From positions 14,566 through 78,565 of the IMG/VR virus record IMGVR_UViG_3300009502_000034: a stretch of DNA of 64,000 nt. One strand, given 5' to 3'. The translations under genes and the position numbers were made by a program. The stretch is from a virus. Shown piece after piece: positions 765 through 23,226 of the stretch; within the stretch, counting starts at the first letter, position 1, and each line of letters opens with the position of its first letter. The notes beneath the pieces are model-generated. The model was not told the DNA's origin, searched no databases, and was given only the letters and a program-made list of their open reading frames with translations.

Positions 765-935
765 ATGAATATATCCGTTGACGACATAGAAAAGGGCATA
801 CACGATATAGTGAAACAGCCGGACGGCATTAGGCGTCTTGCTGAGGTCATTCATTTAATTCTGAGTGATATGGAATCAACAGCAATGAATACGAAAAAGG
901 CTGTTATTGTTATTAATCAACACAAGGACAACTAA
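765..935 (+). CDS. 56 aa hypothetical protein (not in ORF track)
   Basis: AGGAG RBS, ATG 765, TAA overlapping the next ATG (TAATG); MNISVDDIEKGIHDIVKQPDGIRRLAEVI... Confidence 0.55.
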   Translation: MNISVDDIEKGIHDIVKQPDGIRRLAEVIHLILSDMESTAMNTKKAVIVINQHKDN

Positions 936-1423
936 TGCAGAACAATGCGAAACATAAAATAGAACAGTTGGGGATGTCTGAGGGCAAGGCTCGTAGACGG
1001 CTTGAGAAGAAGTTTATATTTATGCTTATAGAGAAAGCTGGTATGAATGTTTGTTATAAGTGTCTTAAGCCAATGACAGCGGATACGTATTCTGTAGAAC
1101 ATAAGAAGGAATGGTTGTATTCAGAGGATCCGGTAAATGCTTATTTTGATATGGCTAATATAGCGTTTTCCCATAGGAAATGTAATAGGGGAACCAGAGG
1201 AATGGTCAGGAAGTCCAGGGGCACTATTTATAAAGGCATATTCAAGATTAACGATGACAAGAGAAGTAAGCTTTGGAGAGCCAATGTTTACGTGAACGGA
1301 AAGCGACATTATGTAGGAAGTTACGCCACGGATAAGGAAGCCGCCATAGCGTATGATGAGGCCGCTGTTAAATTGTTGGGCGACAGGTGTATAACTAACA
1401 AGGCGCTTCATCTTCTCCCTTAA
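935..1423 (+). CDS. HNH-type endonuclease with C-terminal AP2 DNA-binding domain
   Basis: CYKC...SVEHKK...SHRKCN HNH-like core; YKGI...WRANVYVNGKRHYVGSYATDKEAAIAYDEAA AP2 motif. Confidence 0.8.
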   Translation: MQNNAKHKIEQLGMSEGKARRRLEKKFIFMLIEKAGMNVCYKCLKPMTADTYSVEHKKEWLYSEDPVNAYFDMANIAFSHRKCNRGTRGMVRKSRGTIYKGIFKINDDKRSKLWRANVYVNGKRHYVGSYATDKEAAIAYDEAAVKLLGDRCITNKALHLLP

Positions 1424-1585: not shown

Positions 1586-1661
1586 TCCCGAGTAACTCAG
1601 CTGGCAGAGTGCGAAACTGTTAATTTCGATGTCCCACGTTCGATCCGTGGCTCGGGAGCCA
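1586..1661 (+). tRNA. tRNA-Asn(GTT)
   Basis: acceptor TCCCGAG/CTCGGGA, anticodon arm CGAAA-CTGTTAA-TTTCG, T-arm GTTCGATCC, encoded CCA; 76 nt. Confidence 0.95.
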
Positions 1662-1671
1662 ATATCAATGT

Positions 1672-2008
1672 GGGGGTGACTAGTATCGACCGGAAGTTGA
1701 AGTCTGTATTGCCTGTTGAGGTTGAGTCTCCTCGTTAAAAAGATTCAAAAAACAAAAGCTAACTCAAACTTAGCTCTGGCAGCTTAGCTGTCACGCCCAC
1801 TTTTCCTTGCTCACGTGGTTAAAATGGGCGTCATTACAGTGAGATATATCTACTAGTGCGTATGAGAGTAGACGAAAAACAATACGCTGAGGCGTGTCAA
1901 GGTTTGCGCATTTGTCTTTGATGCCCTAAAGCTACAATTGCGCTACACAGGTAGATATACATGCGGACGCTTTTTGGGACCCGGGTGCGAATCCCGGCAC
2001 CTCCACCA
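1672..2008 (+). ncRNA. ssrA: tmRNA (transfer-messenger RNA)
   Basis: 5' GGGGGTG pairs with 3' CACCTCC-ACCA including the G3:U alanine determinant; T-arm CCGGGTGCGAATCCCGG; tag reading frame 1758-1787 ANSNLALAA*. Confidence 0.93.
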
Positions 2009-2066: not shown

Positions 2067-4112
2067 ATGAAAACTATTTCAGCATGCATAATTTGTAAAA
2101 ACGAAGAGCCAGTTCTAGATAAAATGTTTAATAGTATTAAGTCTGTAGTCGATGAAATCATTTTTGTAGATACCGGCAGTACAGATAAGTCTAAAGATAT
2201 AGCCGCTAAATACGGCGCAAAGATATATGATTTCCCATGGACTGGTTCTTTTTCTGATGCACGTAATGAAGCCATGAAACATGCAACGAAGGATTTTATA
2301 TTTCAAATAGATTGTGATGAAACCCTAACATCTCAGAGCGTTGCAGAGTTGCAAAGATTAAAAAACTGCGATCTGAAATTATATAATGTCACCATGCACA
2401 ATTTTTTAGATACCGGTGATATGGTCGTGAGCAATAATTTTAGATTATTTCCCAATGATAAAGAGTTAGTGTATGAATTGCCGATACATGAGAATGTATC
2501 TGACTATAAAAATAAATATAAAATAGACGGTACGTCAATTATATTAGATCACTACGGATACACTAAATCCGAGAAAGATAGAAAGGGCTCTGATAAACGA
2601 AATTATGATATGCTTAAAGAGTGTGTTGATAAAGAACCCAATAACCCTTACTTTATATATCATTTTGCGCAACAGTGTTTTCTTGCTAAAAAATATGAAG
2701 ATGCATATAAGTTTTATATGCAAGTTGTTGATATATTAAAAGCTGATCCTAAACATTTTTATGCAAACTATCTTCCGCTTTCATATGACGGAGCAGCTGT
2801 TTGTGCGACGACAATCAATGATATTAATAAAATTAATGCGCTTAAGGATGTTGAAACAACGTCATCAGCATTCTATTTAAATTTAGGTACGTTCTGCGAA
2901 AACGCAAATCTATTAGATGCAGCGATAACGCTATATGATAAAGCGTGCTACTGTACTAAGTTAATAGGAAAATTGTTGAGCTATGATAATGGCGCAATGA
3001 CGTGGAAACCATATGCTAGCTTAGGCAATGCATACTTTAAGGCCGGGAAGATAAGCAAGGCAATAGATGCATACAGGCTGGCATTAAGCGAGAACCAAGT
3101 TTTGCCAGAGATATGGGCACAGGCTAGCAGACTTTATATTGCTCTTGAAAATATTCCAATGGCTGAAACCTATATGAAGGAAGCCATCAAACATAAAAAT
3201 GATAAGGTAAATAATATCGCACTAGCCAATATATACATTGCTAGCGAGCGGTTAAAGCCTGGGGTAGAACTCTATTTTAAGTGGGCGTCACCAGAACAGT
3301 TGATAGCCTTGATGCAAGAGATGCATAGAAATGGATTTACCGATATAGTCGACGATATTCAACATGTATTAGATAGTAGGGAACATGCGTTTACGATGCC
3401 TAATGTTGACATGCCGTTGCTAGAAAACTCAGTAACGATTATCATGCCAACGTTGTTGGTGGCTCCAGCAAGGTGGATAGAAAGATCGTTGGAAGAGGCT
3501 GAGAAGTGTAAATACATCAAGAAAGTAATAGTGATAGACAATACCGCTAAGAAGGAATTTAAGAGCAAAATAAAGTTTGGAAATAAAGTTATGGTCGTGG
3601 ATGACCAGCCAGATTTACAGGTCAACCCAGCCTGGAACTATGGCGTTAATTTGTGCGACACCAAGTACTATCTTCTTTTGAATGACGATATATTGTGGAA
3701 CAGTGATGTTATACAAAGTTGTTTAAACGTGGTCGAAAAGAATGACAGGTATTCCGTGTTGACTGTCGTCACTCGTAGAGAAAGTTTTGATGAATATAAT
3801 AAGGGGTTTCCGGTAACGACGCCAAAGATTATCACAGCAGCAGTCCCGCTGAATCATATTGAAGGCGGTTGGTTCGTATTCGGGAAGAAGGATGAATGGA
3901 TAAATATTCCTAGCGAATTAAAGATTTTTTATGGTGATAATTTTATATTTGAGAATGCTGTTATAAAGCATAAAAAGAAAATAGGCAAGATTTTAACGCA
4001 GTATATTTGTCATATAGTGTCTATCACCGTAACATCTCTTCATCTTTATGAGGAAGGATTATTGCAAACAGAAGGTAAGATATATGAAAAGATCAGAGCG
4101 AAAATAAGGTAG
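2067..4112 (+). CDS. GT2 glycosyltransferase with TPR region and a second C-terminal GT2-like domain
   Basis: N-term CIICKNEE...EIIFVDTGSTD...FSDARN...IDCDE; helical TPR-like middle; second TIIMPT...VIVIDN...NPAWNYG...LLLNDD domain. Confidence 0.85.
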   Translation: MKTISACIICKNEEPVLDKMFNSIKSVVDEIIFVDTGSTDKSKDIAAKYGAKIYDFPWTGSFSDARNEAMKHATKDFIFQIDCDETLTSQSVAELQRLKNCDLKLYNVTMHNFLDTGDMVVSNNFRLFPNDKELVYELPIHENVSDYKNKYKIDGTSIILDHYGYTKSEKDRKGSDKRNYDMLKECVDKEPNNPYFIYHFAQQCFLAKKYEDAYKFYMQVVDILKADPKHFYANYLPLSYDGAAVCATTINDINKINALKDVETTSSAFYLNLGTFCENANLLDAAITLYDKACYCTKLIGKLLSYDNGAMTWKPYASLGNAYFKAGKISKAIDAYRLALSENQVLPEIWAQASRLYIALENIPMAETYMKEAIKHKNDKVNNIALANIYIASERLKPGVELYFKWASPEQLIALMQEMHRNGFTDIVDDIQHVLDSREHAFTMPNVDMPLLENSVTIIMPTLLVAPARWIERSLEEAEKCKYIKKVIVIDNTAKKEFKSKIKFGNKVMVVDDQPDLQVNPAWNYGVNLCDTKYYLLLNDDILWNSDVIQSCLNVVEKNDRYSVLTVVTRRESFDEYNKGFPVTTPKIITAAVPLNHIEGGWFVFGKKDEWINIPSELKIFYGDNFIFENAVIKHKKKIGKILTQYICHIVSITVTSLHLYEEGLLQTEGKIYEKIRAKIR

Positions 4113-4493: not shown

Positions 4494-4802
4494 ATGGCAA
4501 ATACCGGAAAAGAAGTGACCATAAACATGGCGCTAGGGAAGTTGAAATCCCTGCACCAGAGGCACTCGGAGCTTTGCACTCTGAGGAACATCAACGCTCG
4601 TAGGGTCGAGCGGTTCGGGTATGGCAAGGACGGAGAGAAAGAGGTCTCCGAGCCAACATACTCGGCAATAGAACTGGATAAGAAAATATCCAGGATAGCC
4701 AAGGAGATACGTCTCCTTGATGAGTCCATCAAAGCGACCAATCAAGTTACGGCCGTTAAGGACTATCTTTGGGATGACGAGGTCCTTTCAGAGATACTGT
4801 AA
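4494..4802 (+). CDS. short DIP1984-like coiled-coil protein
   Basis: AAGGAGG RBS; C-terminus ELDKKISRIAKEIRLLDESIKATNQVT resembles the DIP1984 family C-terminal helix as recalled, not searched. Confidence 0.5.
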   Translation: MANTGKEVTINMALGKLKSLHQRHSELCTLRNINARRVERFGYGKDGEKEVSEPTYSAIELDKKISRIAKEIRLLDESIKATNQVTAVKDYLWDDEVLSEIL

Positions 4803-4810
4803 ATAATTCT

Positions 4811-5225
4811 CGGCATGCTTGTTGGCAGTCGCTCTGCCTAAGACGGGTATGATATTAGAGCTCCCTTGTCGAGAGAGATATAATCAGTCTTTGCGGGCTG
4901 AGGACAGATAGAGCTCGAGTCTTGTCTCCACTTCACTTATTGAGCTCGATAATCAAAAGCATAAAGTGACTTGGCGGGAATGGGCGTTACCACTAGTGCC
5001 ATTCAAACATACAGGTATGTTGGTGCCTGGTCGTCGGTGACCGGTACCTAACTTGTTGGTTGTTGATTTTTGATGTGCCACCCTTATGGGTTTGATTATT
5101 TTAATTCTTTAAGGTTGGTTGTTACCTCTGTCAGCTCGCTTATAAAATATTAACGCTGGTGCACGACCAAACGAGGACGGCTAACAAATGGCTCGTCTGG
5201 AGTAGATCCCTTAAATCGTATGCTG
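4811..5225 (+). ncRNA. putative large structured non-coding RNA (~415 nt)
   Basis: nested long-range helices 4811-18/5218-25, 4841-48/5191-98, 4858-62/5133-37, 4903-08/5127-32, 4949-57/5091-99, plus local hairpins; no ORF of 60 aa or more. Confidence 0.6.
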
Positions 5226-5282
5226 CTTAAATATCTGCTGGTGTCTGATGCAGATTGCCAGCCTCTTAATTTAGGAGAATGC

Positions 5283-5648
5283 ATGAAAAGATTTACAATA
5301 GAAGATCCAGTATACGGTCAACATCTGCATGTTGTATTAAACACATCCCCTAAGGCATTTTTCAAATTAGTGAAATCAGAAATAAAAATTGGCACGTTTA
5401 GCAAGGATGACGATATAACACCAACCGATGGCGCAGCGTATTTTATGTTTAAAGACAATAGCGGAGATGAGCATTGTTATCTTTGGATGGAATCTTTTAA
5501 TAAGAGCACGCATAATATAAGCGCATTAATACATGAGCTGTATCATCATATGTGTTACGCCATGTCATTTGTAGAAGTTAAGGATGAAGAAGCATCGGCT
5601 TATTATCTGACATTCCTTTGTAATAATGCACTCAGTAAACTAGCTTAA
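5283..5648 (+). CDS. putative HExxH metallopeptidase-like protein
   Basis: AGGAG at 5273-5277 favours ATG 5283 within ORF 5220..5648; LIHELYH...EEASAY motif. Confidence 0.55.
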   Translation: MKRFTIEDPVYGQHLHVVLNTSPKAFFKLVKSEIKIGTFSKDDDITPTDGAAYFMFKDNSGDEHCYLWMESFNKSTHNISALIHELYHHMCYAMSFVEVKDEEASAYYLTFLCNNALSKLA

Positions 5649-5657
5649 GGAGAACTC

Positions 5658-5987
5658 ATGTCTTGTGCTAAACAATTAGTAGTAGCCGTTATAAAAAATA
5701 AAGGTCGTTATTGGGTTGGCACTAACTGGTGTCACAATCCTCAGACCAAATGCCCACGTGGTGACATGCCATCCGGAGAAGGATACGAGAACTGCCAACA
5801 AATCTGTAAACAAAACGCCCATGCAGAAATAGACGCAATAGCAAATGCTGGGGAGAACGCACGTGGTGGCACACTCTATTTATATGGTCACACATATTGC
5901 TGCGAAAAATGTAGAAAGGCAATTTTAAAGGCTGGTATAGTCGGTGTTATTTACGGGTTTCCTGATGAATTTAATAAAGTGTCTTAA
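5658..5987 (+). CDS. cytidine/dCMP deaminase family protein
   Basis: HAE zinc motif and CCEKC; GTN near the N-terminus; AILKAGI. Confidence 0.8.
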   Translation: MSCAKQLVVAVIKNKGRYWVGTNWCHNPQTKCPRGDMPSGEGYENCQQICKQNAHAEIDAIANAGENARGGTLYLYGHTYCCEKCRKAILKAGIVGVIYGFPDEFNKVS

Positions 5988-21359: not shown

Positions 21360-21569
21360 ATGATAGGCAAACTTTCCAATCTAACATCGAGAGACAAGGA
21401 TAATTTCATCAAAGAATTGATGAAAGTATCCGAAAAAGTCCTCGGCGAAGAAGGCATGACTAAATCAGCTTCAGCGACCGTACCGTACAACGCTATGTCG
21501 ACGAAGGCTGAATCTGCTTTCAACGCAATTTTCACAGGCCCCAACGGCCTTAAGAGGGTCGCATTCGCT
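21360..21569 (+). CDS. major capsid protein, exon 1 (70 aa)
   Basis: AAGGAGGAG RBS; ends ...GLKRVAFA and joins in frame to MQVPLKNRLDY after intron removal. Confidence 0.8.
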
Positions 21570-22458
21570 AGACAGTAGTATGGCGCTTTTACGGGAAACC
21601 GTAACCGAAACGTGAAATATGCTAGGAACTCCTTAGAGCCTCAACCACCGAAGAGTTAAAGTGTTGAGGATTGGACAACCAGCAGGAGGTTCAAGATGGG
21701 ACATAAAAGAGTAAACAATCTCGCAATGACTTATGAGTTGGGATATGTGATAGGCGTATATTTTGGCGATGGTAGCATATGCAGTAGTGCCACCGAACAA
21801 AATAAGGGCAAGTCCTGGTTCTCTTTAACTACTATAGATTTAGAGTTTGCAGAGTATGTTAAAGAGTGTTTGTCTATGTTTGTTGGTCCAATAGAAGGCG
21901 GGATCAATCACTACATAGATAAGAGATCTGGGAGAAAGCCGCAGAATCACTTGAGGGTAACTGCTTCAGATTTCTGTAGAGCAATATCGACAATCACAAT
22001 GAATAAGACAAAGATACCAGAGATCGTTTACAATCATCAATCAGTCAAACAAGGTTTCATAGAAGGCTTCCTTGATTCTGAGGGATGGGTAAGCAAAACT
22101 AAAGAAATTTGTAACAATCCAAAATCTAAGTATTATGGACACAATCAATATAGAATAGGTTTTGGTTGTACAAATAAAGAAGTAATGAAGATAATGGGAA
22201 ACTTTCTTTTTGAGTTTGGAGTTCAGATAAATCAGATGAATGAGGCTCCAATACCGTCAGGAAAGACATTTTATCGTTACTTCATGAATATAGATAGTTT
22301 TGTTAACTCACCGCTCAAGTTCATAATTAAGAGGAAGCAAGATAGATTGATTGAATATAAAAGTCTTATCACCTCCCCAGAGACTACCAATCACAGCCCG
22401 CAGAAATAGGGTTAAGGTATAGTCCGATCTTCATAGAAATATGAAGCTAACAGAAATG
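21570..22458 (+). mobile_element. group I intron (889 nt) in major capsid gene
   Basis: P1 CGCU|A pairs with UGGCG giving U.G at the splice site; R CAGAGACTA 22378-86, S AAGGTATAGTCC 22414-25, P9 CTTCATA-GAAA-TATGAAG, terminal G 22458. Confidence 0.88.
21696..22409 (+). CDS. intron-encoded LAGLIDADG homing endonuclease
   Basis: YVIGVYFGDGS and FIEGFLDSEGW motifs; AGGAGG RBS inside the intron. Confidence 0.9.
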   Translation: MGHKRVNNLAMTYELGYVIGVYFGDGSICSSATEQNKGKSWFSLTTIDLEFAEYVKECLSMFVGPIEGGINHYIDKRSGRKPQNHLRVTASDFCRAISTITMNKTKIPEIVYNHQSVKQGFIEGFLDSEGWVSKTKEICNNPKSKYYGHNQYRIGFGCTNKEVMKIMGNFLFEFGVQINQMNEAPIPSGKTFYRYFMNIDSFVNSPLKFIIKRKQDRLIEYKSLITSPETTNHSPQK

Positions 22459-23226
22459 ATGCAGGTCCCTCTTAAGAACCGTCTTGACTACGTGGCAATC
22501 GGCCGTAACAGAATGATCCTCGTAGACGAAATACCTCAGGGTGAGGTGCCAATATACGACCTTGATATTCCTGAATTCGGCGCCGTTACTATCGCTTCTC
22601 GTGGAGAACCACCCCACTTTCAAACGAACATCAAAAGGCTCCAGTTCCCCACTTTCCCTCTTACCATCGATCATGAGTTGAAATGGGAAGAGATTCAGAT
22701 TCGTAGATATCCTGCATTTGATAGGGCGAAGGAACGTGTTGCCATATCAATGGCTATTGCAGAAGACGATCTGATAATCTCCACGCTTGCAACCGCAGTA
22801 AAGAACGGTCCCAACACTTCGTTCACAGCTTCTTCCGTGACAAGGTATGCTATAGCGGATGCTTTCAAACAGATCCTCAGCAACCAGTTAATAGTCGGCG
22901 GAATTGCGATGAACCCAGCGCAGTATGCGGACATTCTTAAATGGAATACCAGCGACCTTGACCAGGTTTCCGTAAATACCATAATCGAGACTGGGCTTTT
23001 CGGCTCAATCTTTGGTTCCAAAATGATGGTCTCCACCAGGATACCAGCAGGAACAGTTTATGTTTTTACTACTCCTGACAAGCTCGGAAGGCTTCCAGAA
23101 CGTAAGGGTGTTGAAGTCAAGATATTTGACAACATACCTAGGGCGCAATATGATATAGTTGGTTTCGAGCAGATCGGAATCGGCATTCATAATACGGCCG
23201 GCATTACCAGCTTTACGATCGCTTAA
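22459..23226 (+). CDS. major capsid protein (HK97 fold), exon 2; spliced product 325 aa
   Basis: PLKNRLDY..IGR, FPTF, DRAKE...AEDD, MNPAQYADI, G.IFGSKMMVSTRIPAGTVY, EQIGIGIHN capsid-like motifs; strong terminator follows. Confidence 0.85.
   Translation: MQVPLKNRLDYVAIGRNRMILVDEIPQGEVPIYDLDIPEFGAVTIASRGEPPHFQTNIKRLQFPTFPLTIDHELKWEEIQIRRYPAFDRAKERVAISMAIAEDDLIISTLATAVKNGPNTSFTASSVTRYAIADAFKQILSNQLIVGGIAMNPAQYADILKWNTSDLDQVSVNTIIETGLFGSIFGSKMMVSTRIPAGTVYVFTTPDKLGRLPERKGVEVKIFDNIPRAQYDIVGFEQIGIGIHNTAGITSFTIA

What the first reader, a model, noticed from the sequence alone, without database searches (positions are those of the whole stretch)
4494..5225. DIP1984-like small protein followed by a ~415 nt multi-branched structured RNA: candidate ribonucleoprotein module
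Seen: right after the stop of 4494..4802, an ORF-free region folds by eye into a nested architecture closed end to end. Long-range pairs: CGGCATGC 4811-18 / GTATGCTG 5218-25; AGACGGGT 4841-48 / GCTCGTCT 5191-98; GAGCT 4858-62 / AGCTC 5133-37; GACAGA 4903-08 / TCTGTC 5127-32; ATAATCAAA 4949-57 / TTTGATTAT 5091-99 with CATAA/TTATG inside. Local hairpins: 4824-38, 4884-4901, 4911-47, 4978-5004, 5006-21, 5022-48, plus a single-stranded U/G-rich tract at 5051-5075. Many pairs are G.U, which points to RNA rather than DNA structure. Both the gene and the RNA look more GC-rich than their neighbours. It does not resemble tRNA, tmRNA or the group I core seen at 21570. Inference: a co-transcribed protein plus ncRNA unit of unknown function.
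Basis: partly seen in the sequence, partly recalled or inferred. Interest (0 to 1): 0.72.

Follow-up and report, generated by a model that had tools for sequence, protein, structure and literature searches.

The report
Phage small protein with partner RNA
Right behind a small helical-protein gene, this freshwater phage encodes a real, conserved folded RNA of about 250 bases with short 7-base repeats; the gene-plus-RNA pair recurs in many phages and some soil bacteria and matches no described RNA family, so it is probably an undescribed protein-RNA particle whose job is unknown.

Summary
The ORF-free stretch after 4494-4802 holds a genuine structured RNA. It is shorter than proposed: the conserved core is 4893-5139 (247 nt), not about 415 nt. 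The inner ones hold (GACAGA/UCUGUC, the 4911-4947 hairpin, the 4978-5004 hairpin, the U/G tract).

The 102-aa protein is a helical hairpin. Its best fold match is DIP1984 (3KDQ), and it belongs to a large family of about 100-aa DUF6847-like proteins.

I examined 12 distinct phage loci and Acidobacteriota genome loci found with this protein. In the 12 phage loci and the 19 aligned bacterial ones, the same RNA plan follows the gene on the same strand while the flanking genes differ. The plan is two nested closing helices, UA, a covarying hairpin, GAUAAA, variable hairpins, then two C-poor arrays of 7-nt units (G-U-n-n-n-U-n).

Covariation is strong: 15 of 19 pairs are compensatory, and 0 of 500 shuffles do as well. 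Rfam has no match, and the paper library never mentions DUF6847 or DIP1984.

The closest analogue is VIPR (RAMP protein plus 5-nt-repeat RNA), but both defining features fail here.

Function and expression are not shown. Earlier notes of this scan report the same kind of pair on other DNA in many genomes.

The parts
4494..4802 (+). Gene for a 102-aa helical-hairpin protein, a short DUF6847/DIP1984-like family member
   Evidence: ORF. PF20935 E 0.003, 18 bits, below the cut-off. The family has 208 representative clusters at E<=1e-3, and 30 of 41 members hit PF20935. AlphaFold model: helices 10-35 and 58-85, pLDDT 80. Foldseek top hit 3kdq, prob 0.99, rmsd 1.8 A.
4803..4892 (+). Variable linker with local hairpins (for example 4824-4838); not part of the conserved RNA core
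   Evidence: No sequence counterpart in L002/L003, which carry a different long hairpin here. A near variant replaces 4876-4879 with 74 other letters. In most relatives the RNA starts 3-34 nt after the stop codon.
4893..5139 (+). Conserved structured RNA core (247 nt)
   Evidence: The best-aligned blocks are 80-82% identical to L003, against 66% for the coding gene. Single-base indels occur in conserved blocks. Fold z is -3.15 for 4884-5145 and -2.75 for 4893-5139; alignment-shuffle z is -5.3. The same plan is seen in 11 other phage loci.
4893..4899 (+). P1a 5' strand (GCGGGCU), pairs with 5133-5139 (AGCUCGC)
   Evidence: RNAalifold pairs at columns 91-97/334-340, with one G.U to G-C change. 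An equivalent outer helix covaries across phage relatives (helices 1-2).
4903..4908 (+). P1b 5' strand (GACAGA), pairs with 5127-5132 (UCUGUC); followed directly by UA 4909-4910
   Evidence: G-C to A-U double change against L002. In the relatives, helix 3 has 5 of 5 pairs with compensatory changes. It is also predicted in the sequence-only alignment of 19 Acidobacteriota RNAs.
4911..4947 (+). P2 hairpin (GAGCUCGA ... UUGAGCUC) with a fixed closing G-C pair
   Evidence: Six different stem sequences occupy the same place among the seven loci compared, always between UA and GAWAA. Helix 4 is 100% paired.
4948..4959 (+). A-rich conserved segment GAUAAUCAAAAG. In this subgroup 4949-4957 can pair with 5091-5099.
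   Evidence: GAUAA or GAAAA follows P2 in 10 of 12 phage loci, and in some but not all of the Acidobacteriota loci. The 4949-57/5091-99 pairing is conserved only in L002 and shows no covariation.
4978..5004 (+). Hairpin P4
   Evidence: Two compensatory double changes against L002 (columns 179/199 and 180/198). The variant changes 4979 A>G and 4997 U>C keep or improve pairing.
5022..5048 (+). Variable hairpin
   Evidence: L002 has a different 8-bp UUCG hairpin at the same place. In the near variant, a deletion at 5045 plus 5046 A>C keeps a helix (inference from the letters).
5055..5075 (+). First array of 7-nt units: GUUGGUU GUUGAUU UUUGAUG (C-free)
   Evidence: A G/U-only run lies downstream of the gene in most loci searched. 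Lag-7 autocorrelation z is 2.2 here and up to 4.4 in relatives. In Acidobacteriota the entropy by unit position is 0.16, 0.41, 0.69, 0.77, 0.78, 0.08, 1.15 bits.
5080..5091 (+). Small hairpin between the two arrays (ACCC UUAU GGGU)
   Evidence: L002 has an unrelated 5-bp hairpin at the same place, with three double changes. The near variant carries an insertion in the loop. A hairpin at this position is also predicted in Acidobacteriota.
5114..5126 (+). Second, shorter array ending in ACC (GUUGGUU GUUACC), directly before the 3' strand of P1b
   Evidence: 'ACC' precedes the 3' strand of P1b in most loci. GUUGAU-type units occur at this position in relatives.
5127..5139 (+). 3' strands of P1b (5127-5132) and P1a (5133-5139); end of the conserved core
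   Evidence: One variant's contig stops matching the window after 5154. In L002/L003 a tRNA-Pro starts 9 nt after the equivalent point.
5140..5282 (+). Unconserved spacer up to the next gene (RBS AGGAG 5273-5277, ATG 5283)
   Evidence: No counterpart in L002/L003. The downstream 121-aa protein hits phrog_1365 and is unrelated to the downstream genes of the other loci.

Best explanation
The element is a two-part module: a gene for a small alpha-helical hairpin protein (a short DUF6847/DIP1984-like form) and, directly 3' of it on the same strand, a structured RNA of about 190-250 nt.

Shown:
- The RNA has a conserved plan. Two nested closing helices (P1a, P1b) are followed by UA, a hairpin P2, a GAUAAA-type A-rich segment and one to three variable hairpins. 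Then come two C-poor arrays of 7-nt units (G-U-n-n-n-U-n) separated by a hairpin, an ACC, and the 3' strands of P1.
- The helices covary.
- The pair travels together through phages and Acidobacteriota while its neighbours change.

Inferred:
- Gene and RNA are made as one transcript. Where a tRNA follows, RNase P would cut the 3' end.
- The folded 5'/3' 'handle' holds the two repeat arrays single-stranded.
- Several copies of the protein bind along the arrays, one per 7-nt unit, contacting the fixed G1, U2 and U6. Positions 3-5 and 7 stay free.
- The particle then acts on another nucleic acid or a host factor, most likely in conflicts between mobile elements.
For: Reality of the RNA:
- The noncoding blocks are more conserved than the coding gene (80-82% against 66%), and they carry 1-nt indels.
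- Against L002, 18 of 65 predicted pairs show double changes.
- Alignment-shuffle z is -5.3.
- All 12 phage RNAs fold closed end to end, with z from -1.6 to -5.5.
- On the model-fitted alignment of 8 RNAs, 96% of cells pair and 15 of 19 pairs have compensatory changes. None of 500 shuffles does as well, and slid controls pair in 31-57% of cells.
- A sequence-only alignment of 19 Acidobacteriota RNAs predicts the same P1b, P2 and mid hairpin.

Strand:
- G.U pairs occur in the helices and the arrays are C-poor.
- The RNA has the same orientation as the gene in every locus.

Linkage:
- The RNA is present after the gene in 12 of 12 distinct phage loci.
- It starts 3-34 nt after the stop codon in 8 of them, and the flanking proteins are unrelated.
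- A simple descriptor (UA, 6-bp stem, GAWAA, then a G/U run) gave one hit away from the protein-linked sites in 2.4 Mb searched.
- A covariance model built from three loci finds five further loci at the expected place (E 3.5e-7 to 3e-3).

Protein:
- It belongs to a large family.
- It is a helical hairpin with conserved Arg, Lys and Asn residues. Its best fold match is 3KDQ.

Repeat periodicity:
-.

Context:
- In phages the module sits in islands of stable RNA genes: tRNA, tmRNA and RNase P RNA.
- In Acidobacteriota it sits next to toxin-antitoxin, PIN and HNH genes. An ERCC4-HhH nuclease lies directly 3' of the RNA in 9 of 32 loci.
Against: - No expression data. No RNA run holds the stretch, so neither a discrete transcript nor its ends are shown.
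- Binding of the protein to the RNA is not tested; the complex predictor was not available.
- The 7-nt periodicity in this window is weak: three units plus about two, with lag-7 z of 2.2 and lags 3 and 4 nearly as strong.
- In phage members the 'variable' unit positions are mostly G, U or A. That fits a composition constraint as well as a code.
- The model built from distant members does not detect the window's RNA, and the window's model does not detect them. Membership of the window's RNA therefore rests on the shared protein family, the descriptor and the shared plan.
- The window protein scores below Pfam's cut-off for DUF6847.
- The alignment used was fitted to the structure it tests.
Confidence: 0.6

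Rival explanations
1. The RNA is a free-standing stable non-coding RNA, for example a scaffold, or a sponge or decoy for a host RNA-binding factor through its G/U-rich strands. It does not bind the DUF6847-like protein. The linkage reflects shared regulation or a shared pathway, not a particle.
For: - It lies among other stable RNA genes (tRNA, tmRNA, RNase P RNA) in several phages.
- A tRNA follows within about 10-35 nt in L002/L003 and L014, as for RNAs released by tRNA processing.
- In two loci an ORF lies between gene and RNA (L011, L136).
- No binding data exist.
Against: - Co-occurrence with one protein family is invariant across phages and bacteria while every other neighbour changes.
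- The RNA starts within 3-34 nt of the stop codon in most loci.
- No locus with the RNA but without the gene turned up. However, the only protein-blind scan used a narrow pattern, and its 118 loci were screened only with the strict descriptor, so this is weak.
Confidence: 0.15
2. The structure is a cis-acting part of the mRNA. It could be a 3'-UTR or intercistronic element that stabilises the message, sets processing sites, or controls translation of the DUF6847-like gene or of the next gene, possibly as the protein's own operator.
For: - In most loci the next gene's ribosome-binding site or start codon follows the 3' strand of P1a within about 5-60 nt, with no terminator evident by reading the sequences (reading of the sequences).
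- No clear promoter or terminator flanks the RNA in the window.
Against: - Downstream genes are unrelated between loci and are sometimes a tRNA.
- An RNA of about 200-250 nt with several covarying helices and repeat arrays is far more elaborate than known stabilisers.
- Autoregulatory operators normally lie 5' of the regulated gene.
Confidence: 0.12
3. It is a toxin-antitoxin-like pair of the type III kind, in which a repeat-bearing RNA neutralises a protein toxin.
For: - The RNA carries short repeats and is tightly linked to a small protein gene.
- In Acidobacteriota the module lies among toxin-antitoxin genes: nucleotidyltransferase, PIN, DUF433.
Against: - The order is gene then RNA, not a repeat array, terminator and then toxin.
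- The units are 7 nt, not about 36 nt.
- The protein is a plain helical hairpin without a nuclease-like fold.
- The PADLOC library was not searched.
Confidence: 0.05
4. There is no functional RNA. The conservation reflects a DNA-level signal or an unrecognised small coding region.
For: - Folding of the whole 481-nt gap is not significantly better than shuffles on either strand.
Against: - Compensatory changes and G.U pairs are specific to the + strand.
- 1-nt indels occur in conserved blocks.
- No ORF is shared between the window and L002 in the region.
- The plan is kept at 33-63% G+C.
Confidence: 0.03

Closest known systems
VIPR systems (Vipr protein plus vrRNA; bioRxiv 10.64898/2026.04.26.720920 and 10.64898/2026.04.26.720927)
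   Same: - Mostly virus-encoded, minimal loci: one small RNA-binding protein gene flanked by a non-coding RNA made of short tandem units, in which fixed positions alternate with variable ones, capped by a structured conserved part.
- Some cellular versions sit beside nucleases.
- According to the papers, Vipr protomers line up along the repeats and the variable bases read DNA (and the abstract listed).
   Different: - Vipr is a RAMP (RRM fold with G-loop and thumb). The protein here is an all-helical hairpin of DIP1984 type.
- vrRNA units are 5 nt (YNNGG), 9-16 per RNA of about 100 nt. Here the units are 7 nt (G-U-n-n-n-U-n), in two short arrays of about 2-4 units, enclosed by long-range helices in a 190-250-nt RNA.
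- No binding, targeting or silencing has been shown here.
DIP1984 family / Pfam DUF6847 (PF20935; crystal structure 3KDQ, Corynebacterium diphtheriae), function unknown
   Same: - Sequence profile match over profile positions 63-136.
- 30 of 41 relatives match PF20935.
- Best structural match, rmsd 1.8 A over 81 columns.
   Different: - The proteins here are about 95-105 aa and lack roughly the first 55-60 positions of the 141-position profile.
- The window protein scores below the curated cut-offs of Pfam and NCBIfam.
- No function or RNA partner is recorded for the family in the paper library searched.
ROOL and GOLLD: large structured RNAs of phages and prophages, often next to tRNA genes
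   Same: - Ornate structured RNAs of unknown function, carried by phages and often near tRNA genes. This point rests on my own knowledge of those families; it was not tested here.
   Different: - No similarity to any Rfam model, these two included.
- Much smaller: about 250 nt, against about 600-800 nt from my own knowledge.
- Strictly tied to one protein family and carries 7-nt repeat arrays.
TRAP and HutP with their RNA targets (Bacillus): protein oligomers that read evenly spaced short triplets
   Same: - The idea of a protein oligomer contacting a row of short, evenly spaced RNA motifs separated by free spacers. This is established knowledge of those systems and a resemblance only.
   Different: - Those proteins are beta-rich rings that regulate attenuation of host operons. 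Their RNA is an mRNA leader, not a closed stand-alone fold.
- No homology was tested or expected.
Type III toxin-antitoxin systems (ToxIN type)
   Same: - A repeat-bearing RNA genetically coupled to a small protein, on mobile elements.
   Different: - Opposite gene order, 36-nt repeats, and an endoribonuclease toxin. None of these is seen here.

Membership tests
Pfam DUF6847 / NCBIfam DIP1984_fam (protein) | Score at or above the curated cut-off of the family model | tested here: not met
   PF20935: 18 bits against a cut-off of 27, E 0.003. NF038048: 15.3 bits against 70. The six-frame search of the phage's own record gives 17.2 bits.
Pfam DUF6847 / NCBIfam DIP1984_fam (protein) | Homology visible at family level (relatives match the model) | tested here: met
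   30 of 41 aligned relatives match PF20935 at E<=0.01; the best is 2.7e-7.
Pfam DUF6847 / NCBIfam DIP1984_fam (protein) | Fold of the solved member 3KDQ | tested here: met
   Foldseek top hit is 3kdq_C: probability 0.99, TM 0.63 normalised to the query, rmsd 1.8 A, 22% identity. The E-value is only 0.68. The profile search of PDB sequences gives 3kdq at E 1.9.
Pfam DUF6847 / NCBIfam DIP1984_fam (protein) | Full length of about 140-150 aa | tested here: not met
   102 aa, covering profile positions 57/63-136 of 141. Most relatives are 90-110 aa. The longer ones look like mis-called starts.
VIPR | Effector is a RAMP (RRM core, G-loop, thumb) | tested here: not met
   The model is two long helices with no strands. 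No RAMP appears among the fold or sequence matches. The feature is defined in 10.64898/2026.04.26.720920.
VIPR | RNA made of YNNGG pentanucleotide repeats, 9-16 units | tested here: not met
   The units are 7 nt. Lag 5 gives among the lowest autocorrelation values in nearly every member. Unit conservation follows G-U-n-n-n-U-n.
VIPR | Protein and RNA form a particle that recognises DNA through the variable positions | not testable with these tools
   This needs pull-down, binding or repression assays. The complex predictor was unavailable.
Any Rfam 15 family (including ROOL, GOLLD, group I/II introns, tmRNA, 6S, SRP, RNase P, Y RNA) | Covariance-model match at the gathering score | tested here: not met
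   Nothing in 4803-5283 at the gathering score. At E<=10 there are only four chance-level hits of 12-19 bits. Nothing on the RNA in 18 related loci.
The DUF6847-associated repeat RNA seen here's loci (working family) | Lies directly 3' of a DUF6847-like gene on the same strand | tested here: met
   Window: 90 nt after the stop codon. In 12 of 12 phage loci the RNA follows the gene.
The DUF6847-associated repeat RNA seen here's loci (working family) | Nested closing helices, UA, P2 hairpin closed by G-C, GAWAA | tested here: met
   Window 4893-4959 with 5127-5139.
The DUF6847-associated repeat RNA seen here's loci (working family) | Detected by a covariance model built from other members | tested here: not met
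   Model R2 (L014/L139/L136) finds L138, L013, L135, L010 and L011, but not the window or L003. Model R1 (window plus L002) gives only E 0.044 at the right place in L138.
The DUF6847-associated repeat RNA seen here's loci (working family) | Two C-poor arrays of 7-nt units with fixed G1, U2, U6 | tested here: inconclusive
   The window has GUUGGUU GUUGAUU UUUGAUG at 5055-5075 and GUUGGUU GUUACC at 5114-5126. Lag-7 z is 2.2. The pattern is clear in Acidobacteriota.

The most novel reading that the evidence does not exclude
The pair is a second, independently evolved programmable system of the VIPR kind, built on a non-RAMP helical protein. Protomers of the DUF6847-like protein would polymerise on the 7-nt units by gripping G1, U2 and U6. 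Positions 3-5 and 7 of successive units would together spell a gapped recognition code for DNA or RNA of competing phages, satellites or the host. In cellular versions an ERCC4-HhH nuclease would be recruited as effector.
Probability: 0.2. Interest if true: 0.95.

Novelty: categorically new. Interest (0 to 1): 0.78.

Why it matters
If protein and RNA do form a particle, this is an undescribed ribonucleoprotein that is widespread.
- The protein family has more than 200 clusters at 50% identity.
- It occurs in large phages of lakes, soils and other habitats, and in Acidobacteriota genome assemblies.

It would give a first functional handle on DUF6847/DIP1984. That family has had a crystal structure since 2009 but has no known role.

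The RNA's row of 7-nt units, with fixed and free positions, resembles the logic just described for VIPR guide RNAs but sits on an unrelated protein fold. It therefore makes a concrete question testable: did repeat-coded nucleic-acid recognition evolve more than once?

Its place beside phage tRNA, tmRNA and RNase P RNA genes also bears on what large phages do with their RNA islands.

Tried and rejected
The contigs of the closest protein relatives P0002, P0004 and P0005 could not be fetched.

Searches that found nothing useful:
- GenBank phages: no DNA match and no tblastn match with P0001 or P0019.
- IMG/VR: no close relative of the window protein.
- IMG/VR DNA-pattern scans from the window's RNA gave only chance hits in coding sequence.
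- A G/U-tract pattern gave 118 loci, almost all coding (terminase and similar). Only the already known locus carried the protein.
- The first genome-contig scans failed or found nothing.
- Sequencing runs: no RNA holder is listed. All 13 holders are freshwater or lake DNA metagenomes kept as contigs. This says nothing about expression.
- A search of the window for sites complementary to the first array gave 3 matches against 1.0 expected. Two of them are the array itself.
- The paper library never mentions DUF6847 or DIP1984. A search on phage-encoded RNase P RNA and tmRNA gave nothing relevant. The language-model survey paper does not mention the family or a 7-nt period.

Methods that did not work:
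- Whole-gap folding is not significant.
- Model R1 (window plus L002) did not detect distant members.
- Model R2 did not detect the window. In Acidobacteriota it gave only one weak hit, E 0.043.
- MAFFT misaligned the 5' halves of distant members.
- An automatic search for the P1b partner that allows G.U pairs is not discriminating: 38% of shuffled 6-mers also find 6 of 6 pairs in the G/U-rich 3' part.

Readings considered and dropped:
- Small hydrophobic peptide encoded in the G/U tract: the frames and stops are not conserved between loci (reading).
- G-quadruplex: the window's tract has too few GG runs.
- SRP, 6S, 5S or RNase P identity: no Rfam support.
- Decayed tRNA at 5150-5225: ARAGORN and Rfam find none.
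Full report
**Setting.**
The window is part of a 78.5-kb IMG/VR virus record judged about 50% complete. It occurs in freshwater and lake metagenomes from five studies. The window carries a tRNA-Asn and a tmRNA at 1586-2008.

The finding covers the ORF 4494-4802 (102 aa) and the gap up to the next gene. That gene has its ribosome-binding site AGGAG at 5273-5277 and its ATG at 5283.

**Checking the observation.**
- The gap has no ORF of 60 aa or more.
- G+C is raised over the gene and the RNA, 0.45-0.50 against 0.36-0.40 in the flanks.
- The quoted sequences are at the quoted places.
- Rfam 15 finds nothing at gathering score. At E up to 10 it gives only four chance-level hits.
- Folding of the whole 481-nt gap is not clearly better than shuffles (z -1.6; the minus strand gives -1.8). 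Energy alone does not support the proposed 415-nt structure.

**Comparison with relatives defines the real element.**
The protein has relatives of 67-85% identity.

A metagenome scan gave two loci, L002 and L003, identical to each other over this region. Their protein is 73% identical to the window's.

Downstream of the stop codon these loci align with the window from about 4884 to 5145. The best-aligned noncoding blocks are 80-82% identical, against 66% for the gene itself, and they contain single-base indels. Genes on both sides are unrelated, and in L002/L003 a tRNA-Pro starts 9 nt after the core.

Contigs of two near variants were laid on the window. They show the following:
- a 74-nt replacement at 4875-4880;
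- one variant's contig no longer matching the window after 5154;
- point changes inside the core that keep pairing, such as 4979 A>G and 4997 U>C in the 4978-5004 hairpin, and an insertion in the 5084-5087 loop.

So the conserved core is 4893-5139. The core folds better than shuffles (z -3.15). The two-sequence alignment beats column-shuffled alignments (z -5.3, 0 of 300). Against L002, 18 of 65 predicted pairs keep pairing through changes on both sides.

**The protein.**
A profile of the five close relatives finds 208 representative clusters at E<=1e-3 among 1.8 billion proteins. Most are 90-110 aa. The longer ones look like mis-called starts in G+C-rich DNA.

The window protein hits DUF6847 and DIP1984_fam only weakly, below the cut-offs. 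However, 30 of 41 relatives match PF20935.

The AlphaFold model is a helical hairpin (helices 10-35 and 58-85, pLDDT 80). Its best PDB match is 3KDQ, the DIP1984 structure (probability 0.99, rmsd 1.8 A, though E is only 0.68).

Conserved positions are mainly Arg, Lys and Asn on the two helices, plus an acidic C-terminal tail. This fits a nucleic-acid-binding protein but does not prove one.

**The RNA recurs with the protein.**
Two IMG/VR scans with sub-alignments of the family gave 15 loci, 10 of them distinct and assessable. In every one, a related RNA lies 3' of the gene on the same strand.

The shared plan is as follows:
- an outer helix P1a;
- an inner helix P1b that ends directly at UA;
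- a hairpin P2 whose first pair is always G-C;
- GAUAA or GAAAA (absent in two loci);
- one to three unrelated hairpins;
- a run of G/U-only sequence;
- a hairpin;
- a second G/U(A)-rich run ending in ACC;
- the 3' strands of P1b and P1a.

P2 has six different stem sequences among the seven loci compared. A crude descriptor of this plan gave a single hit away from the protein-linked sites in 2.4 Mb of fetched DNA.

A covariance model built from three loci with only P1a, P1b and P2 marked finds five more loci at exactly the expected coordinates (E 3.5e-7 to 3e-3). On the resulting alignment:
- 96% of cells pair;
- 15 of 19 pairs show compensatory changes;
- none of 500 shuffles reaches this;
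- slid controls pair in 31-57% of cells.

That alignment was fitted to the structure, so it leans toward it.

All 12 RNAs fold closed end to end, with z from -1.6 to -5.5 at 33-63% G+C. The RNA starts 3-34 nt after the stop codon in 8 of 12 loci. No flanking protein is shared between loci.

**Limits of the window's membership.**
Neither model bridges the A+T-rich window/L003 pair and the others. Membership of the window's RNA rests on three things: the homologous protein, the descriptor and the shared plan.

**Bacterial copies.**
A scan of one genome per species found 32 loci, nearly all labelled Acidobacteriota (mostly Vicinamibacterales) and some on contigs of 1-5 Mb. The same RNA plan follows the gene.

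A sequence-only alignment of 19 of them, folded by RNAalifold, predicts P1b, P2 and the hairpin between the arrays, with compensatory changes. Rfam has no match.

In these close relatives the first array shows a clean 7-nt conservation pattern. Mean entropy by unit position is 0.16, 0.41, 0.69, 0.77, 0.78, 0.08 and 1.15 bits, against 0.63 for the whole RNA. The unit is therefore G-U-n-n-n-U-n.

In the phage RNAs, lag 7 is the best or near-best autocorrelation lag in most members (z 2-4). In the window it is weaker, with z 2.2. The window's units are GUUGGUU GUUGAUU UUUGAUG at 5055-5075.

**Context.**
In phages the module sits in islands of stable RNA genes:
- tRNA-Asn and tmRNA lie 2.5 kb upstream in the window;
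- tRNAs and a tmRNA lie upstream in L014 and L139;
- a tRNA lies upstream of the gene in L138;
- an RNase P RNA lies directly upstream of the gene in L014 and L136;
- a tRNA directly follows the RNA in L002/L003 and L014.

In Acidobacteriota an ERCC4-HhH nuclease gene follows the RNA in 9 of 32 loci. Other neighbours are nucleotidyltransferase, PIN, DUF433 and HNH genes.

**Comparison with what is known.**
Earlier notes of this scan list 138 findings in at least 126 genomes that match these search words. The eight shown all describe a coiled-coil or DUF6847-like gene followed by a folded RNA, several with 7-nt units. One of them pointed to VIPR.

I read the VIPR preprint. Vipr is a RAMP and vrRNAs are made of YNNGG 5-nt repeats. 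Both defining features fail here: the protein is a helical hairpin and the units are 7 nt.

The logic is similar, though. VIPR is phage-borne, has a small protein plus a repeat RNA with fixed and free positions, and some cellular versions sit beside nucleases.

The paper library never mentions DUF6847 or DIP1984. A 2026 survey of periodic intergenic arrays reports that periods of 60-79, 18 and 5 nt account for 96% of its clusters. It does not mention a 7-nt period or this family.

**Mechanism.**
Shown:
- a conserved, covarying, plus-strand RNA structure;
- its strict linkage to one protein family;
- the periodic conservation in the arrays.

Inferred:
- co-transcription with the gene;
- 3' end formation by RNase P where a tRNA follows;
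- binding of several protein copies along the units through G1, U2 and U6;
- action on another nucleic acid or a host factor.

I put 0.6 on the particle reading as a whole. I put 0.2 on the more specific reading that the free positions form a gapped recognition code. The rivals are a stand-alone RNA not bound by the protein, a cis-acting mRNA element, a toxin-antitoxin pair, and no function. They are listed with their tests.

**What could not be done.**
- No RNA run holds the stretch.
- The complex predictor was unavailable.

Noticed in passing
window 1586-2008: The phage encodes a tRNA-Asn (GUU) directly followed by a full tmRNA (139.5 bits, tag ANSNLALAA), about 2.5 kb upstream of the module.
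   Followed up: partly
L014 2156-2462; L136/L137 1999-2307: Phage contigs carry a bacterial class A RNase P RNA (203 and 191 bits) directly upstream of the DUF6847-like gene. In L014 it lies within a cluster of tRNAs and a tmRNA; a tmRNA also lies upstream of the gene in L139/L141.
   Followed up: partly
L011 1855-1965: Weak YrlA (Y RNA-like) match, 37.6 bits against a gathering score of 69. It lies about 110 nt after a tRNA-Arg and about 500 nt upstream of the DUF6847-like gene.
   Followed up: no
L143, L145, L146, L149, L151, L155, L156, L163, L165 (about 2560-3450 in most): In 9 of 32 Acidobacteriota loci an ERCC4 plus helix-hairpin-helix nuclease gene starts right after the RNA on the same strand. 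Other loci have nucleotidyltransferase, PIN, DUF433 or HNH genes nearby.
   Followed up: partly
window 4875-4880: A variant about 95% identical, from another lake study, replaces four bases with 74 other letters just 5' of the conserved RNA core.
   Followed up: no
L132 about 3190-3480 (+ strand): An unrelated viral contig has four or five copies of an 11-nt A/C-rich unit. About 330 nt downstream lies a G/T-rich array that looks like its complement. There is no DUF6847-like gene nearby. It might be iterons or another repeat RNA.
   Followed up: no
window 21360-23226: Another note of this scan describes a group I intron in the capsid gene here. Rfam at gathering score reports no intron family anywhere in the window. 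I did not look further.
   Followed up: no
window 935-1423, 2067-4112, 5658-5987: Neighbouring genes: a 162-aa protein with an AP2 domain; a 681-aa family-2 glycosyltransferase with TPR repeats; a 109-aa cytidine/dCMP deaminase-like protein.
   Followed up: no
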